A stretch of 64,000 bases of DNA from assembly GCA_038902975.1 (NCBI GenBank), contig JBCKMZ010000001.1, positions 14,592-78,591 on the forward strand. Direction: 5' to 3'. Position 1 is the first letter of the stretch. Every line of letters starts with the position of its first letter. Source of the DNA: Polaromonas sp. GTDB taxonomy: Bacteria; Pseudomonadota; Gammaproteobacteria; Burkholderiales; Burkholderiaceae_C. Shown here one piece after another: positions 37,341-48,992 of the stretch. The translations under genes were made by a program, and so were the position numbers. A model generated the notes under the pieces. The model ran no database searches. It saw only the letters and a list, made by a program, of their open reading frames with translations, and had not been told where the DNA came from.

Positions 37341-38545
37341 ATCGGGTAGCCAGAGGCTTCTAACCTCCGGCCCCCACACCACCCACCATGCGGGTCCGCA
37401 GTGGGCGGTTCAACAAGCTGGCTTGCACGACGAAGCTTTCTTTGGCGTGTAGCCCTGGGCCTTGCACCACAGATCCTTCACGCTCAGTAGTCCCTGCGCT
37501 GCCAACCATGTGTTGTTCAGCGCCTGTTGTGTCACCGGGGTTCGCGCCATATGCCAGTAGCTCTTGCTACTCACACCATGCTGGATCGCTGACTTCAGGC
37601 TCACGCCCAAAGCCAACAGGTTCTTGATCTTCGTGCGCGGCCAGCGCCACCTTTTCCAGTAGCACATGCGGATTCGCCTTCTGATCCACTCGTCCAGCTC
37701 GGGAACAGGTCGGTAGTATTGGCTGATGCCAAAGTAGCCCACCCATCCCCTCAGGTACTGCCCCAGTTTGTACAGCCGGTATTCCATGGATACCCCCCAG
37801 CTTCTACCCGTCAGCTCCTTGATCCGGTGCTTGAATTTCGCTTCGGACTTCTCAGTCCAGCGGGTCTTCTTGCCCTTGATCGAGAAACCCAGGAAGCTGC
37901 ATTCGCTCATCGGAGCCACTTTGCTTTTGGCAAGGTTGACCGTGAGTTTGAGGGTGCGCTCCAGATACCGGCACATCTCCCCCGGTCGGGTTCGGTGATG
38001 CGTTCGAGTGGGCCACGTCTGCTCCTTGTGTCTCATTGTTCAGCCCTTCATTGGCCCGACTCCTGGCCAACTACTATGGCGTCTGCTGACTTCTGCCTCG
38101 TCACGACTCACATTTCTGTCAGTCGCGCTGTACCTCTGGATGATGTTGCTGCCGCTTTCTTCGACACGCAGCGGGCAGCTCGCCACGGCGCTTGGGTCTT
38201 GGTATCCCGGTTGAACCGATCCGGGTTTGTCATCATCCAATTGCACCGCACGCGGTGCAGATCTCCCCAGGTAAGGACGCGAACGTTCCATGCGCAAGCG
38301 CCGCATTTACCATGCCCACTGAACCAAAGGGCTTTGTCGTCATGTGCCAACTCGCCCCGCAGGCTTGGCCTTGTATGCGGTTTCTGTTCGTCGCCTCGCA
38401 CTTTTGCACTCGGGCTTCCTCCAGACAAGACCTCGCGGGCCTGCCCTTGCCGTCGGCTAGTGGTTAAGATTGCTCTCTATGAGTCCAATTTGGTTCTCCC
38501 ACAGGGGACTTTCACCCCATAAGTTCGCGCCCATGCTGGGCGCAC
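37341..38545 (-). mobile_element. Group IIC-attC intron, internally deleted (1205 nt)
   Basis: 5' GTGCGCCCAGCATGGGCG after IBS1 TTGT; domain V gaaccgcccactgcggacccgcatggtgggtggtgt; 3' end ctacccgAT followed by T; splits the attC inverse core. Confidence 0.92.
37410..38036 (-). pseudogene. Intron-encoded RT/maturase, only the RT C-terminus and domain X retained
   Basis: LKLTVNLAKSKV..SFLGF, LRGWVGYF, LDEWIRRRIRMCYWKRW; no PQG or YADD motifs. Confidence 0.88.
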
Positions 38546-38600
38546 ACAACGGCGTGCAGAGCGACGCGCCAAGAGCGGCGCGCGCCTGACGCCGGACGTT
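38546..38600 (+). other. attC site of cassette 1, split by the intron and followed by a MITE
   Basis: Reconstructed ACCGA|AC aacg gcgtgcag agcgacgcgcc aagagc ggcgcgcgc ctgacgc cggac GTT. Confidence 0.85.
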
Positions 38601-38757
38601 GAGGCTGTAAAAAACCCCCTCCACAACGATAGAAACATGAAAATGCAGAAATCGACCTCTCAGAACGCGCTGTATTCGACGATCATGACCTCGGCAAGGG
38701 TAAACGCACCCCCAAAATCGGAGCATTTCTCCAGGGGTGGAGTTTTTTTACAGCCTC
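38601..38757. mobile_element. 157-bp MITE or internally deleted IS
   Basis: 14-bp perfect TIR gaggctgtaaaaaa / ttttttacagcctc; flanked by a GTT direct repeat (38598-38600, 38758-38760). Confidence 0.85.
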
Positions 38758-40166: not shown

Positions 40167-40256
40167 GTATAACATGGCGGTGTACTCGGACGCGCGTTAA
40201 GCACCGCGCCTTGGTCTTCTGTCCGTAGTCGCGCGCCGGTAACCTCTACATTATGC
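40167..40256 (+). other. attC site with mutated core (GTT to ATT)
   Basis: GTATAAC atggc ggtgtactcggacgcgcg ... cgcgcgccggtaacc tctac ATTATGC. Confidence 0.75.
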
Positions 40257-43643: not shown

Positions 43644-44117
43644 TCACGCCATTCCGGCGAACGCCGCGACCACTTCAGGCGGTGCCTGCACCATCTCAAT
43701 CAGCACGCCCTCACCGGCAATCGGAAACTCATCATTCGCCTTCGGGTGCATGAAGCAGATGTCAAAACCCGCTGCGCCCTTGCGAATGCCACCTGGCGCA
43801 AAACGCACGCCCTGCGCCGTCAACCATTCCACGGCTTTGGGCAAATCGTCAATCCACAAGCCGACATGATTGAGCGGCGTGGTGTGAACGGCGGGCTTCT
43901 TTTCAATGTCTAGCGGCTGCATCAAGTCCACCTCGACCTTGAACGGCCCACTGCCGATAGCACAGATGTCTTCATCGACGTTCTCGCGTTCGCTGACGAA
44001 ATTGCCAGTCACTTCAAGACCCAGCATGTCTACCCACAGGGTGCGCAGGCGGTCTTTGCTAGTGGCACCTATGGCGATTTGCTGGATGCCCAACACCTTG
44101 AACGGACGGCGGCTCAT
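43644..44117 (-). CDS. VOC-family protein, probable methylmalonyl-CoA epimerase
   Basis: [28 protein letters not shown]; last gene of the mutase/PCC operon. Confidence 0.8.
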
Positions 44118-46174
44118 ACAAACTCCACAATCGGCTGATCCACGCTGAGTGATTCGCCTTTGTTGGCCAGCACCTTGCCAACGACACCGTCGACAATAGC
44201 GAATAAAACGTTTTCCATCTTCATCGCTTCAATCACCGCCACACGCTCACCAGCCTGCACTTTCTGGCCGACCTGAACCGACACTTCGGCCAGCAGACCA
44301 GGCATGGGCGAGAGCACAAAACGGCTCATGTCGGGCGGCGCTTTAAACGGCATCAGCGCGTGCAGCGCGGCTGCGCGCGGCGACAACACCAGCGCATCAA
44401 GCCGGGTGCCGTTATGCGCAATGCGGATAGCCAGCGGATTCTTCACGGAACCATGTCCAACACCGCGCTCGACCTGCGCTGTAAACGGTTTGCCGTTCAC
44501 TGTACCGCGTATGCGCGCACCACCCAAGTGCCAGTTGCTACAAATTTCGTAGCTGCTCACGCCCACATCTATTGCGCTGGAGCCTGTTTTTGCCTCGTAA
44601 TCACGTACCGTCACGGCCTGGTGGGTATTTTTTCCGCCTGGCCCAAGGCCTATCACCACAAACTCCTCACCCACTTCAACGCCATGCCCTGGCAGTTGCC
44701 CGCTGATGCCCGCCGCACGGCCCAACTGGCGGCGGTTGACGTAAGCCGCCAGCGCCACCAGAAAGTCCGGGTCATCGTGCGCAACGTCTTCTGCGCGAAA
44801 GCCCTGGCTATAGTTCTCGGCAATAAAGCCGGTGTTGAAGTCACCCGCCACAAACTTCGGGTGCGCCAGCAAGGCCGACTGGAACGGGATATTGCTGGAG
44901 ATGCCGCGAATCACGAAACCATTAAGCGCCTCGCGCATTTTTGCAATCGCGTCCAGCCTGTCCTTGCCATGCACGATGAGCTTGGCAATCATCGAGTCGT
45001 AAAACATCGGTATCTCGCCGCCGTCCTGCACGCCGGTATCGACACGCACGCCGTAGAGGTGTGCGGTGTCGGCGGCAAACATGGTTTCTTTTGGCGGCTG
45101 AAAGCGTACCAGTCGGCCTGTGGAAGGCAAAAAATTGCGAAACGGATCTTCAGCATTGATGCGGCACTCGATAGCCCAGCCATCGCGCTTGACCTGGCTT
45201 TGAGTCAAAGGCAGCTTCTCACCCGCCGCCACACGAATCATCAGCTCAACCAGGTCCAGCCCGGTGATGCATTCCGTCACCGGGTGCTCGACCTGCAGGC
45301 GGGTGTTCATTTCCAGAAAGTAAAAGCTCTGGTCTTTGCCGACCACAAACTCGACCGTGCCGGCGCTCTGGTAGTTGACGGCCTTGGCCAGCAGCACCGC
45401 CTGCTCGCCCATGGCCTTGCGCGTGGCCTCGCTGATAAAGGGTGATGGCGCTTCTTCAATCACCTTCTGGTGGCGGCGCTGGATCGAGCATTCGCGTTCG
45501 TTGAGATAAATCACATTGCCCTGGCTGTCCCCAATCAGCTGAATCTCGATGTGGCGTGGCTCTTGAATAAATTTTTCAATGAAGACGCGGTCATCGCCAA
45601 AGCTGCTCTGCGCTTCGTTGCGGCAGGACGTGAAACCTTCAAGCGCCTCTTTGTCATTGAAGGCCACGCGCAAGCCCTTGCCACCACCGCCAGCGCTGGC
45701 TTTAATCATCACCGGATAGCCAATGCCTTTTGCAATTTCAACGGCGCGCTCAGGCGTTTCAATCGCGTCGTTCACGCCTGGAATGCAGTTGACTCCGGCA
45801 GCACCCGCCAGTTTTTTCGATCCAATCTTGTCGCCCATGGTGGCAATTGAATCATGCTTGGGGCCAATGAAAATAATGCCCTCTTCTTCAACCCGCTTGG
45901 CGAAACTCGCGTTCTCGCTGAGGAAACCATAACCTGGATGCACAGCTTCTGCGCCAGTCTGCTTGCACGCTGCAATGATTTTTTCGGCCTGCAAATAGCT
46001 GTCACGACTCGGTGCCGGGCCGATGTTGATGGCCTCATCGGCCAGCTCGACATGGCGCGCATCCTTGTCGGCGTCGGAATACACCGCGACGGTTTTGATG
46101 CCCATCTTGCGGGCGGTAAGGATGACGCGGCAGGCGATTTCACCCCGATTTGCAATCAGAATCTTATTAAACAT
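44114..46174 (-). CDS. pccA: Propionyl-CoA carboxylase alpha subunit
   Basis: [40 protein letters not shown] biotin site. Confidence 0.95.
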
Positions 46175-46295
46175 GGCCAGTCTCCATCGGGTTGAAATCG
46201 CCTGCATGCGCTTCGCGCACCATGCAATTTAGCTTCGCTGCTGCGCCGCTTTGCGACTGGTCACCTCGGTTGGCGATTAGTATTTTGGTAAACAT
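46167..46295 (-). CDS. 42-aa leader ORF duplicating the PccA N-terminus
   Basis: AGGAGAG RBS; [42 protein letters not shown]; the end overlaps the pccA ATG. Confidence 0.55.
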   Translation of the reverse strand: MFTKILIANRGDQSQSGAAAKLNCMVREAHAGDFNPMETGHV

Positions 46296-46393
46296 AGTGC
46301 TCTCCTAACGTTATTTGGTCAGCGAATGTTGGAATTCGTTGTGGTACTGAGCCTGTCATGTTGACGGTGCTCCAAGGTTTTCTTCTGGGCCCG

Positions 46394-46643
46394 CAACAGG
46401 CTGGGGGTATCTGTCTCCGCTCATGTCCCCCGTCGAAAGGCTCCCGCCTTTGGACTCCTCCTTTACTTCGCTACGACAGACACCTCCAACCTGATGCTGC
46501 GAAGTGCTGACCTTGTATTTCGCATTGGAATACCAAGTGGCCGGGATCGGGCTGCCTGGGTGTTCTGCGCAGGTAAAGGAGGAGGCCGCAGGCCGGGGGA
46601 CACGGAGCAGAGCACCCGGGCAGCCCGATCCAGCGCGATATAA
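46394..46643. repeat. Double-hairpin repeat block, copy 1
   Basis: Hairpin A (ggctgggggtatctgt...acagacacctccaacc) and hairpin B (gatcgggctgcctgggtg...cacccgggcagcccgatc); highly similar to 47186-47436. Confidence 0.9.
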
Positions 46644-47066
46644 CGTAAAAGTAAGGGGCTGCGCGCTTTTGCGGAGTCCCGCTTGAGCGCCGTTAGGCAT
46701 AACCTTTACTCGCTTGGTCTTTAATGTGGCATTCATGACAAACCAACCGCACGTTGTTTTCGACGTAACCGAGATAGGCCTCGGTACGGTCAAGCTCGGA
46801 ACCCTTTTGAGGCATGGGATGATTGCAAAGCGCGCAATTGCCGCTTTGCTTGGCCCACATGAGGGCTTTAAGTTTGTTTCTTACTGCCGGTGTGCTGCGC
46901 TCAATATAAACCAGTTCTTTGGCAAGCTTTCTCCGAAGCGCCCACATTAGGCGGGCATCGCCACCTGATAATGAGTGAAGCTCTGTTTTGACACGCTCAA
47001 AGAGCGGAGCAAACAGTTGTTCACGTTGCTCTTTGGTTAATTGTGGATTGCCCATGTGCTGCCCAA
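46644..47066 (-). mobile_element. Single integron gene cassette inserted outside an integron
   Basis: Starts G/TTGGGC, ends with attC GCCTAAC...ttttacG/TTATAT (46638-46698); absent from the duplicate copy of the flank. Confidence 0.82.
46693..47055 (-). CDS. HNH/His-Me-finger-like Zn-binding protein, 120 aa (cassette gene)
   Basis: CALC ... ELDR...GYVENNVRLVCHECH; stop TAA lies inside the attC inverse core. Confidence 0.7.
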   Translation of the reverse strand: MGNPQLTKEQREQLFAPLFERVKTELHSLSGGDARLMWALRRKLAKELVYIERSTPAVRNKLKALMWAKQSGNCALCNHPMPQKGSELDRTEAYLGYVENNVRLVCHECHIKDQASKGYA

Positions 47067-47089
47067 CTTCATATAAAGCCCCAATGGGA

Positions 47090-47192
47090 GTTACAACGGT
47101 ATATTCCCATGCTTGCGCCACGGGTTCTCAAGTTTCTTGTCCTTGAGCATGACCAGCGAACGGCAGATGCGCTTGCGGGTTTCGTGCAGCAA
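47090..47192 (-). pseudogene. Duplicated 3' end of pccB (last ~33 codons)
   Basis: Encodes [31 protein letters not shown], same as the PccB tail at 47460-47562. Confidence 0.92.
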
Positions 47193-47436
47193 GCTGGGCG
47201 TATCTGTCTCCGCTCATGTCCCCCGTCCAAAGGCTCCCACCTTTGGACTCCTCCTTGACTTCGCTGCAACAGATACCCCCAGCCTGCTGCTGCGAAGTGC
47301 TGACCTTGTATTTCGCATTGGAATACCAAGTGGCCGGGATCGGGCTGCCTGGGTGTTCTGCGCAGGTAAAGGAGGAGGCCGCAGGCCGGGGGACACGAAG
47401 CAAAGCACCCGGGCAGCCCGATCCAGCGCGATACAA
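47186..47436. repeat. Double-hairpin repeat block, copy 2
   Basis: Same layout as 46394-46643. Confidence 0.9.
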
Positions 47437-47459
47437 CTTCATATGGAGCCCAATGGAAG

Positions 47460-48992
47460 TCACAACGGAATATTCCCGTGCTTACGCCATGGGTTCTCAA
47501 GTTTCTTGTCCTTGAGCATCACCAGCGAGCGGCAGATGCGCTTGCGGGTTTCGTGCGGCAAGATCACGTCATCAATATAACCACGTGCGCTGGCCACAAA
47601 CGGATTGGCAAAGCGGGCTTTGTATTCGGCTTCGCGTGCAGCTAACTTCACTGGATCACCCTTGTCTTCGCGGAAGATGATTTCAACTGCACCCTTGGCA
47701 CCCATCACGGCAATCTCGGCATTCGGCCAGGCGAAGTTGACATCGCCGCGCAAATGTTTGGATGACATCACGTCATACGCGCCGCCATAGGCCTTGCGCG
47801 TGATGACGGTAATTTTTGGTACCGTGCACTCGGCATACGCATACAGCAACTTCGCACCATGCTTGATGATGCCGCCGTATTCTTGTGATGTACCGGGCAT
47901 GAAGCCGGGCACATCGACAAACGTGATGACGGGGATATTGAAGGCATCGCAAAAGCGCACAAAGCGCGCCGCCTTAATGGCGCTTTTGATGTCGAGGCAA
48001 CCGGCCAGCACCAGCGGCTGGTTGGCGACAATGCCCACGCTCTGGCCTTCCATGCGGGCAAAACCGATGATGATGTTCTTCGCGTACTCCGGCTGAATTT
48101 CAAAAAAATCACCGTCATCAACCGTTTTGGCAATCAGTTCCTTCATGTCGTAAGGCTTGTTGGCGTTCTCTGGTACCAGCGTGTCCAGACTCAAGTCCAT
48201 GCGATTGGCCGGGTCGGCACTCGGGCGCACCGGGGCTTTCTCGCGGTTATTCAGCGGCAGGTAGTTATAAAGGCGGCGCAGCATCAAGAGCGCTTCAACA
48301 TCGTTCTCGAAAGCCAAGTCTGCCACGCCGCTTTTGGTGGTGTGCGTAATCGCTCCCCCCAGTTCTTCGGCGCTGACTTCTTCATGCGTCACGGTTTTAA
48401 CAACTTCAGGGCCGGTCACAAACATATAGCTTGAGTCTTTGACCATGAAGATGAAGTCAGTCATGGCGGGTGAATACACCGCACCACCCGCGCACGGCCC
48501 CATGATCATGCTGATCTGCGGAATCACGCCGCTGGCCATCACATTGCGCTGGAACACATCGGCATAACCGCCCAGTGATGCCACGCCTTCCTGGATGCGC
48601 GCGCCGCCGGAATCGTTCAGGCCAATCACTGGCGCACCGACTTTCATGGCCTGGTCCATCACCTTGCAAATTTTCTCGGCATGGGCTTCACTCAATGCAC
48701 CGCCGAACACGGTGAAGTCCTGGCTGTAGACAAACACCAATCGGCCGTTGATCATGCCGTAGCCGGTGACTACGCCGTCGCCGGGGATTTTTTGTGTCTC
48801 CATGCCGAAGTCGGTGCAGCGGTGTTCAACGAACATGTCCCACTCTTCAAACGTGCCTTCGTCCAGCAGTACCTCCAGCCGCTCACGCGCGGTGAGCTTG
48901 CCCTTGCCGTGCTGCACATCAATGCGTTTTTGCCCACCGCCCAAACGCGCTGCGCTTCGCTTTTTTTCCAACTGTTGAAGAATATCTTGCAT
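47460..48992 (-). CDS. pccB: Propionyl-CoA carboxylase beta subunit
   Basis: [42 protein letters not shown]. Confidence 0.96.

What the first reader, a model, noticed from the sequence alone, without database searches (positions are those of the whole stretch)
46638..47450. Integron cassette at a non-integron site, with the empty site preserved next door
Seen on the minus strand: the empty copy reads atatgaaG^TTGTATcgcgctggatcggg (about 47444-47417). The other copy reads atatgaaG^TTGGGCagcacATG...[120-aa HNH-like ORF]...GCCTAAC-attC-ttttacG^TTATATcgcgctggatcggg. The 423-bp insert breaks exactly between G and TT with no target duplication. Established: this is the IntI crossover point, and IntI can use secondary GWT (attG-type) sites. 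Inference: a natural before/after record of cassette capture inside a housekeeping operon, oriented for expression from the pcc transcript. The target lies a few bp from a long repeat hairpin, so this repeat family may serve as a cassette landing pad.
Basis: partly seen in the sequence, partly recalled or inferred. Interest (0 to 1): 0.8.

Follow-up and report, generated by a model that had tools for sequence, protein, structure and literature searches.

The report
Lone integron cassette between pccB and pccA
A 423-bp integron gene cassette has been inserted at an ordinary G|TT site between two propionyl-CoA carboxylase genes, and an uninterrupted copy of the same site lies 370 bp upstream; this is a clean natural example of a route of cassette spread that is already described (attG sites, SALINs).

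Summary
On the minus strand, a 423-bp insert (46644-47066) interrupts copy 2 of a 370-bp tandem duplication made of the pccB 3' end, a spacer and a 252-nt structured element. Copy 1 keeps the uninterrupted site GAAG|TTGTAT.

The insert is a genuine integron cassette:
- It has one 120-aa ORF whose stop codon lies in the inverse core GCCTAAC.
- Its 61-nt attC scores 59 bits (E 1e-15) against a covariance model built without it.
- The same attC family lies beside a full-length intI in a congener.
- An 87% identical ORF sits inside a five-attC array elsewhere.

The target is neither attI nor attC, and no intI was found on this contig. This is therefore a SALIN/attG-type insertion, as in Loot et al.

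Two points need correcting. All 7 differences in the duplicated pccB tail are silent, so the two copies are alleles from two lineages joined by recombination, not a literal before/after in one lineage. The "landing pad" idea has no support, because the element occurs only at this locus in this genome.

None of 150 congeners carries the ORF, and another species has the identical empty site, so empty is ancestral. I could not check the reads. This is a new member of a known kind, of moderate interest.

The parts
47460..48992 (-). pccB (propionyl-CoA carboxylase beta, carboxyltransferase), intact, 510 aa
   Evidence: Pfam Carboxyl_trans, E 2.5e-205, full length
47186..47562 (-). Copy 1 of the duplicated unit: last 32 codons of pccB, a 22-nt spacer and element R1 (252 nt). 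The uninterrupted target is GAAG|TTGTAT, with GTT at 47435-47437
   Evidence: The same GAAGTTGTATCGCGC follows pccB in species G014
47178..47193 (-). Duplication junction: the end of R1 joins a point inside the pccB tail (break at 47186|47185) across an 8-nt imperfect microhomology, CTTGCYGC
   Evidence: The two repeat families overlap by 8 nt (47186-47193). Sequence. The end of R is compared with relatives
47067..47185 (-). Orphan copy of the pccB tail (32 codons including the stop, 47091-47185) plus the spacer, ending at the crossover G (47067)
   Evidence: 92% identical to copy 1. All 7 differences are silent: six third-position changes and TGA to TAA
46644..47066 (-). Integron gene cassette, 423 bp. 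It starts TTGGGC-agcac-ATG and ends ...ttttacG
   Evidence: Homologous cassettes share the 5' boundary G|TTAGGC-N10-ATG
46693..47055 (-). Cassette ORF, 120 aa (P0001). It has a helical N-terminal half and a C-terminal zinc-binding HNH/Endo VII-like fold, with Arg where the catalytic His should be
   Evidence: 130 homologues at E<=0.001. No Pfam hit over threshold. AlphaFold pLDDT 94. Foldseek top hits are HNH domains. D89-R90 is invariant in 35 sequences
46638..46698 (-). attC site, 61 nt. The inverse core GCCTAAC (46692-46698) overlaps the ORF stop codon. It has L boxes with one bulged base and a central stem. The core G|TT has its G at 46644
   Evidence: 59.4 bits, E 1.2e-15, against model R2, which was built without this site. 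Across 23 sites 98.3% of cells are paired and 11 of 14 pairs covary
46393..46643 (-). Element R2, the continuation of copy 2 after the cassette. It has a 25-bp stem (46544-46568 with 46607-46631) plus a second module
   Evidence: 94% identical to R1. The element is conserved downstream of pccB in the genus, with compensatory changes
44114..46174 (-). pccA (biotin carboxylase / BCCP subunit). The real start is ATG 46174, and a 42-codon leader ORF precedes it (46167-46295)
   Evidence: Pfam. Translations and alignment

Best explanation
A promoterless integron gene cassette, made of one 120-aa ORF and a 61-nt attC, was inserted by an integron integrase. The folded attC recombined with an ordinary double-stranded G|TT site (an attG-type secondary site) 22 nt after the pccB stop codon, in the sense orientation of the scpA-meaB-pccB-pccA operon. 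This made a single attC lacking an integrase (a SALIN).

The insertion happened in a lineage whose pccB differs silently from the resident gene. That occupied allele then came to lie in tandem with the empty resident allele through one illegitimate join at an 8-nt microhomology (end of R1 to a point inside the pccB tail). The likely setting is recombination with incoming DNA from a related strain.

Shown:
- the cassette's identity
- its boundaries
- the non-att nature of the target
- that the empty state is ancestral
- that all differences in the pccB tail are silent

Inferred:
- catalysis by IntI
- the order of events and the way the tandem arose
- co-transcription with pcc
For: 1. attC. Five near-identical 61-63-nt sites in this genome have the layout RYYYAAC, spacer, L box with one bulged base, central stem with compensatory changes, then GTT. 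A model built from 23 sites without this one scores it at 59.4 bits, E 1.2e-15, the best hit in the window. The model structure is 98.3% paired against 77% in shuffles and 41-47% in slid controls, and 11 of 14 pairs change on both sides.

2. Link to real integrons. 14 of the 61 genomes searched in this genus have an intI above the TIGR02249 cut-off. In G009:C63 two sites of this attC family lie 1.3 and 3.8 kb from such an intI, on the opposite strand. The window's own genome holds a truncated intI with a family attC beside it.

3. The ORF is a cassette gene. An 87% homologue lies between attC 1 and attC 2 of a five-attC array (L063). Others lie in arrays L060/L064, L065, L067, L125 and L127. 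They share the 5' boundary G|TTAGGC-N10-ATG and have the inverse core overlapping the stop codon.

4. The target is not an att site. The flanks of the insert are homologous to copy 1 right up to the G|TT. The only attC-model hits within the duplicated region (46393-47562) or in the pccB and pccA sequence beside it are noise-level, all below 9 bits and E of 0.9 or more, while the cassette's own attC scores 79.5 bits.

5. Empty is ancestral. Species G014 has the same GAAGTTGTATCGCGC after pccB. The ORF was not found in 150 congeners.

6. Two lineages. All 7 differences in the 32 codons are silent. If copy 2 had drifted freely since an in-place duplication, the probability is about 6e-4 to 8e-3.

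7. The mechanism is established. IntI inserts cassettes at 5'-GWT-3' genomic sites, which recombine as double strands, and 3400 SALINs were counted in RefSeq (bioRxiv 10.1101/2022.09.11.507474).
Against: - No complete intI was found in this genome, which is 67% complete. Only a truncated one is present, so the insertion cannot be tied to a resident enzyme.
- The curated IntegronFinder attC model was not on hand. My models come from this attC family only.
- The attC bottom strand folds no better than shuffled sequence by energy alone (z -0.5 to -0.8).
- GTT at both ends also fits a 3-bp target duplication.
- The hotspot motif CRGM at +6 to +9 reported for IntI1 is not present at this site. That motif was defined for a different integrase.
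Confidence: 0.75

Rival explanations
1. The cassette insertion is real in one strain, but the tandem arrangement of empty and occupied copies is an assembly chimera. Two co-occurring strains about 93% identical at this locus were stitched together in the metagenome-assembled genome.
For: - The genome is a 130-contig, 67% complete metagenome-assembled genome.
- The two copies look like two functional alleles, with silent differences only.
- Other local repeats of 93-94% identity exist in the genome.
- Reads could not be examined.
Against: - The join is an 8-nt imperfect microhomology, far shorter than any assembly k-mer, so neither allele alone supplies a path from the end of R1 to the middle of the pccB tail.
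- Estimated contamination is 0.17%, so a second strain is not assembled at large.
- The comparable dnaG duplication on contig C5 has frameshifts in one copy, so it is a real, older pseudogene.
Confidence: 0.12
2. This is a literal before/after in one lineage. A 370-bp tandem duplication arose in place, and the cassette was then captured in copy 2.
For: - The tandem layout and the microhomology junction fit an ordinary in-place duplication.
- The insertion site is identical in both copies apart from one base.
Against: - All 7 differences in the orphan pccB tail are silent, although that copy is not translated in the pccB frame here. The probability is about 6e-4 to 8e-3.
- The spacer differs by about 20% while R differs by 6%, which is the pattern of two alleles evolving under constraint.
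- A 6-8% diverged tandem repeat would have had a long time to collapse by recombination. This last point is inference.
Confidence: 0.08
3. The cassette was ancestral at this site and was excised precisely from copy 1 (attC x attG excision), so the 'empty' site is a scar-free after-state.
For: [quoted passage not shown]
Against: - A different species, G014, has the identical empty sequence.
- None of 150 congeners has the ORF.
Confidence: 0.03
4. The insert is not integron-mediated. It is instead a free-standing HNH homing-endonuclease gene, or a small transposable element with a 3-bp GTT target duplication.
For: - The fold is HNH-like.
- GTT stands at both ends.
- Solitary copies of the ORF lie just after queF and yjbQ in other genomes without a recognisable attC.
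Against: - The 3' end is a high-scoring member of an attC family that lies beside intI and inside cassette arrays.
- There are no terminal inverted repeats.
- The general-base His of HNH nucleases is Arg in all 35 aligned members.
- The same ORF is found with different attC types, as is usual for cassettes.
Confidence: 0.02

Closest known systems
SALINs and attG insertion of integron cassettes (Loot et al., 'A new route for integron cassette dissemination among bacterial genomes', bioRxiv 10.1101/2022.09.11.507474)
   Same: - A single cassette with one attC, with no integrase or attI beside it.
- Insertion at a 5'-GWT-3' site (here GTT), with the break after G.
- The target looks like neither attI nor attC.
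- The cassette lies in sense orientation downstream of a host gene, where it could be expressed.
   Different: - This case is natural and lies in an environmental betaproteobacterial-type genome, with the empty allele present on the same contig.
- The IntI1 hotspot motif CRGM at +6 to +9 is not seen.
- A small cluster of attC sites lacking an integrase (CALIN) lies 6.4 kb away.
aadB cassette at a secondary site in RSF1010 / pIE723 (Recchia and Hall 1995; cited from my own knowledge and in the Discussion of the paper above)
   Same: A complete cassette is inserted precisely at a non-att secondary site downstream of a host promoter, and the empty form of the site is known.
   Different: That case is a resistance cassette on a plasmid. 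This one is a cassette of unknown function in a chromosomal metabolic operon, with the empty and occupied forms in tandem.
Chromosomal integron attC families such as the Vibrio cholerae repeats (from my own knowledge)
   Same: The sites form a homogeneous family within a genome, with the layout RYYYAAC, TCAAG-GGGAC ... GCCCCTTA, GTT, one bulged base in the L box and a variable central stem.
   Different: These sites are short (57-90 nt). In this genome they are mostly scattered as singles or pairs over at least 11 contigs rather than in one long array. The assembly is fragmented, so longer arrays may have been broken up.
HNH / T4 endonuclease VII His-Me finger nucleases
   Same: - A C-terminal beta-beta-alpha fold with a CxxC...(C/H)xxC zinc site and the conserved Asn.
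- Foldseek's best hits are Cap5 HNH, T4 Endo VII, Gme HNH and Cas9 HNH.
   Different: - No Pfam HNH hit over threshold.
- The catalytic His is Arg (ELDR) in every one of 35 members.
- The helical N-terminal half has no match.

Membership tests
Integron gene cassette | attC site with the layout R'' (RYYYAAC), L'', L', R' (GTTRRRY) and a conserved folded structure with a bulged base | tested here: met
   GCCTAAC...G|TT. Scores 59.4 bits, E 1.2e-15, with the leave-one-out model R2. The family structure is 98.3% paired and 11 of 14 pairs covary. The alignment was fitted to the model, which favours the structure.
Integron gene cassette | Detection by the curated IntegronFinder attC covariance model | not testable with these tools
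Rfam gave no hit, as expected for a DNA site.
Integron gene cassette | Cassette boundaries at G|TT of the core site, with one promoterless ORF in the same sense that ends at or in the attC | tested here: met
   The cassette starts G|TTGGGC-agcac-ATG. The stop codon TAA lies inside GCCTAAC. It ends ttttacG|TT. Homologues share the same boundaries.
Integron gene cassette | The same gene and the same attC family occur in real arrays and next to an integron integrase | tested here: met
   The five-attC array L063 holds an 87% homologue. In G009:C63 an intI over the TIGR02249 cut-off has two family attC sites 1.3 and 3.8 kb away on the other strand.
SALIN / attG insertion | A single attC with no intI, attI or second attC nearby | tested here: met
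   The nearest other attC hits are at 40167-40256 and 38544-38604 on the opposite strand, 6.4 kb away. No intI hit was found on this contig.
SALIN / attG insertion | The target is a 5'-GWT-3' site without attI or attC features, and the crossover follows G | tested here: met
   The empty allele reads GAAG|TTGTAT. The only attC-model hits in copy 1 or the adjoining pccB sequence are below 9 bits, E 0.9 or more. The break position within GTT is inferred from the model.
SALIN / attG insertion | Insertion catalysed by an integron integrase | not testable with these tools
   This needs a recombination assay. Only a truncated intI is present in this 67% complete genome.
HNH endonuclease (PF01844) / Endonuclease VII (PF02945) | Profile match over the curated threshold | tested here: not met
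   No family at E<=0.01. Among 35 members, 2 match HNH (best E 0.029) and 4 match Endonuclease_7 (best E 0.015), all below threshold.
HNH endonuclease (PF01844) / Endonuclease VII (PF02945) | beta-beta-alpha-metal fold with a zinc-binding Cys/His pair of pairs | tested here: met
   The model has pLDDT 94. Foldseek's best hits are HNH domains, about 60 residues at rmsd 2.3-3, probability about 1, but E only 0.04. C74, C77 and C109 are invariant, and position 106 is C or H.
HNH endonuclease (PF01844) / Endonuclease VII (PF02945) | Catalytic general-base His in the first motif (DH/HH) | tested here: not met
   The motif is ELDR. D89 and R90 are invariant in 35 sequences.

The most novel reading that the evidence does not exclude
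The tandem of an empty and an occupied allele records a second step of spread that does not need an integrase. A cassette is first fixed at an attG site in one lineage. It then moves to a related lineage together with its chromosomal flanks, by one homologous and one microhomology-mediated join. This leaves both alleles side by side in a core metabolic operon. If that is general, lone cassettes could spread among strains that have lost intI, as this genome seems to have done.
Probability: 0.4. Interest if true: 0.5.

Novelty: new member of a known kind. Interest (0 to 1): 0.42.

Why it matters
Insertion of integron cassettes outside integrons was shown in the laboratory, and inferred from thousands of lone attC sites in genomes. 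Natural cases where both the occupied site and its exact empty form can be read base for base are few. This locus gives one in an environmental bacterium, inside a housekeeping operon, with the crossover where the model predicts it.

It also shows that the occupied allele has moved between lineages with its flanks. That bears on how lone cassettes persist and spread where the integrase is decayed. The cassette gene itself belongs to a widespread 120-aa family of unknown function that recurs in arrays across phyla. That family also occurs as solitary inserts just after housekeeping genes, which makes it a reasonable candidate for functional study.

Tried and rejected
- Rfam on 45500-48500 at E<=1 gave only a noise hit (mir-1295) on the pccA leader hairpin. 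Nothing was found for R or for the attC.
- An exact-match scan of metagenome contigs for the left junction (22 nt) found nothing.
- A protein-guided scan of metagenome contigs gave 10 homologous loci. The roughly 90 nt I read upstream of each ORF showed cassette boundaries or unrelated sequence, not the pccB tail and spacer. I did not search those loci for pccB.
- An exact-sequence look-up of P0001 found no record. The gene caller may have used the upstream GTG start.
- Single-strand folding energy of the attC is not better than shuffles. It was rejected as a test because short attC sites are weak folders.
- The hairpin of R was considered as an attC-like or attI-like mimic. GTTGTAT lies 5' of the stem on the cassette strand, and no complementary ATACAAC follows the stem, so the layout does not fit an attC.
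- IntI-mediated 'outside' excision was considered as the source of the tandem junction. The junction has no GWT.
- The pccA-like start upstream of pccA (46295) was first taken for part of a foreign insert. It was rejected because the same arrangement is conserved in G006 and at a paralogous carboxylase gene in several congeners.

Full report
**Layout.** Read on the minus strand, the region runs in this order:
- pccB (47460-48992; Carboxyl_trans, E 2.5e-205)
- a 22-nt spacer
- a 252-nt element, R1 (47186-47437)
- an orphan copy of the last 32 codons of pccB with its own stop and spacer (47067-47185)
- a 423-bp insert (46644-47066)
- a second copy of the element, R2 (46393-46643)
- about 100 nt, then a 42-codon leader ORF
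- pccA (real start ATG 46174)

The repeat finder gives R2/R1 as 252 nt at 94% with spacing 793, and the two pccB tails as 114 nt at 92% with spacing 369. The structure is therefore a 370-bp tandem duplication whose second copy carries one 423-bp insert. The insert has GTT at both ends, so the break within G-T-T cannot be read from the sequence alone.

**The insert is an integron cassette.**
- Its last 61 nt (46638-46698) have four near-identical relatives on other contigs of the same genome. These share the layout RYYYAAC, spacer, TCAAGCGGGAC, central stem, GCCCCTTA, spacer, GTT. The central stem shows compensatory changes.
- A first covariance model found 13 such sites in this genome, and sites in 18 of the 60 congeners searched.
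- I then built a second model from 23 sites that excluded the pcc site. It scores the pcc site at 59.4 bits, E 1.2e-15, the best hit in the 64-kb window.
- On those 23 sites the structure is 98.3% paired, against 77% in shuffles and 41-47% when partners are slid. Eleven of 14 pairs change on both sides. The alignment was fitted to the model, which favours the structure.
- Folding energy alone is unremarkable.

**Link to real integrons.**
- Fourteen of the 61 genomes searched in this genus carry an intI above the curated TIGR02249 cut-off.
- In G009:C63 two sites of this attC family lie 1.3 and 3.8 kb from such a gene, on the opposite strand, which is the normal integron layout.
- The window's own genome has a truncated intI on contig C46: about 125 N-terminal residues are good, after which the sequence diverges. 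HigB/HigA-like and glyoxalase-like ORFs lie beside it, together with a family attC.
- In all, 17 attC hits lie on at least 11 contigs, mostly as singles or pairs.
- Two weaker hits lie in the window itself at 38544-38604 and 40167-40256, beside a group II intron. [quoted passage not shown]

**The ORF (P0001, 120 aa).**
- It has 130 homologues at E<=0.001, nearly all exactly 120 aa and many on short contigs.
- An 87% identical copy lies between the first two of five attC sites in a Nitrosomonadales contig (L063).
- Other copies lie in arrays in a Rhodocyclaceae genome (L060/L064) and in L065, L067, L125 and L127.
- These cassettes begin G|TTAGGC, then about 10 nt, then ATG. Their stop codon lies inside the inverse core, as here. 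Different copies carry different attC types.
- More distant members occur in Verrucomicrobiota, Acidobacteriota and other phyla.
- Some copies stand alone just after housekeeping genes, without a recognisable attC: after queF in L061 and after yjbQ in L062.
- One copy lies beside conjugative-transfer genes.
- Pfam gives nothing over threshold.
- A confident model (pLDDT 94) has three N-terminal helices and a C-terminal beta-beta-alpha unit. Its best structural matches are HNH domains (Cap5, T4 Endo VII, Gme HNH, Cas9), at probability about 1 but E only 0.04.
- The zinc ligands and the Asn are conserved, but the general-base His is Arg in all 35 aligned members. I therefore call it HNH-like in fold and doubt that it is a nuclease.

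**The target.**
- The flanks of the insert match copy 1 up to the G|TT. No attC remnant lies upstream.
- The attC models give only noise-level hits in copy 1 and in the pccB and pccA sequence beside the duplication (below 9 bits, E 0.9 or more).
- No intI hit lies on this contig.
- Species G014 has the same GAAGTTGTATCGCGC after its pccB, and the ORF was not found in 150 congeners. The empty state is therefore ancestral and the ORF was acquired.
- This matches the published attG route. IntI inserts cassettes at 5'-GWT-3' genomic sites, which recombine as double strands. Lone attC sites (SALINs) are common in genomes (bioRxiv 10.1101/2022.09.11.507474).

**The two copies are not a before/after in one lineage.** In the 32 duplicated pccB codons there are 7 differences, all silent: six third-position changes and TGA to TAA. 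The orphan copy is not read in the pccB frame here. If it had drifted freely since an in-place duplication, seven silent changes out of seven would have a probability of about 6e-4 to 8e-3. The spacer differs by about 20% and R by 6%. That fits two alleles evolving separately, with R under constraint.

The join between the copies (47186|47185) lies in an 8-nt imperfect microhomology, CTTGCYGC. This is typical of an illegitimate join and much shorter than any assembly k-mer. My best reading is that the occupied allele of a related lineage recombined with the resident chromosome, through one microhomology join and one homologous exchange downstream. This step is inference.

**The landing-pad idea.** R has only these two copies in this genome, so none of the other 16 attC hits lies near it. 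Congeners with extra copies of the R hairpin (G016, G022) gave no attC hit. R is conserved downstream of pccB in the genus, with compensatory changes in its 25-bp stem. The crossover lies 12 nt from that stem. The layout does not resemble an attC.

**Expression.** The cassette points the same way as pccB and pccA. The simple scans found no promoter-like site in 46000-47700 and no terminator-like site on the cassette strand. Co-transcription is plausible but untested. No Shine-Dalgarno sequence is evident before the ATG, here or in the homologous cassettes.

**Verdict.** The phenomenon is already described, so this is a new natural member of a known kind. The tandem of two alleles and the silent-only divergence are the unusual part.

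Noticed in passing
window 46130-46295 (minus strand): A 42-codon leader ORF precedes pccA. Its first 11 codons copy the pccA start ([11 protein letters not shown]). About 85 nt follow, holding an inverted copy (46186-46205) of pccA codons 8-14 (46130-46149), which form a 20-nt stem. The leader stop overlaps the pccA start (cATGTTTAA). The same arrangement, 83-84% identical, precedes pccA in G006 and a paralogous biotin carboxylase gene in G014, G008, G022 and G009, with a matching blastn hit in G016. No Rfam family matches it.
   Followed up: partly
window 46393-46644 and 47186-47437; relatives L005-L018: The 252-nt element after pccB is conserved in the genus, with compensatory changes in a 25-bp stem. 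A second module pairs with the loop of the first (CTCCTCCTTT with AAGGAGGAG). Parts of it recur at other loci in some congeners, for example G016. It has no Rfam hit. It could be a structured RNA or a MITE/REP-like repeat.
   Followed up: partly
window 38043-38604 and 40167-40256: A group II intron lies on the minus strand (RF02001 at 125 bits, RF01998 at 71 bits). It sits directly beside an attC hit on the plus strand (38544-38604), and a further attC hit lies at 40167-40256. [quoted passage not shown]
   Followed up: partly
G000 contig C46:4008-5457 (locus L024 1309-2758): A truncated integron integrase lies next to ureC. Its N-terminal part, about 125 aa, is intact (TIGR02249 positions 1-109, 119 bits). 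It is followed divergently by HigB/HigA-like and glyoxalase-like ORFs and a family attC. This is a decayed integron platform.
   Followed up: partly
G000 contig C5:3851-5359 and C28:3373-4713: Two further local direct repeats of 93-94% identity each flank a toxin-antitoxin-like gene pair. On C5 the repeat is the first 228 nt of dnaG plus 26 nt of leader, and the upstream copy carries frameshifts. On C28 a 186-nt non-coding repeat flanks a ParE-like pair. The attC model gave no hit on either contig. These may be more cases of inserted modules bracketed by diverged copies of the target.
   Followed up: partly
L061 5001-5363; L062 5001-5363: Homologues of the cassette ORF stand alone 13-22 nt after queF (Gallionellaceae genome) and after yjbQ, in the same orientation as the host gene, with decayed or missing attC sites. 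This cassette seems to be retained repeatedly as a lone insert behind housekeeping genes.
   Followed up: partly
L119-L124: An 85% identical homologue lies a few kb from TraG/TrwB-type coupling protein and AAA_25 genes, that is, on a conjugative element, in several independent assemblies.
   Followed up: no
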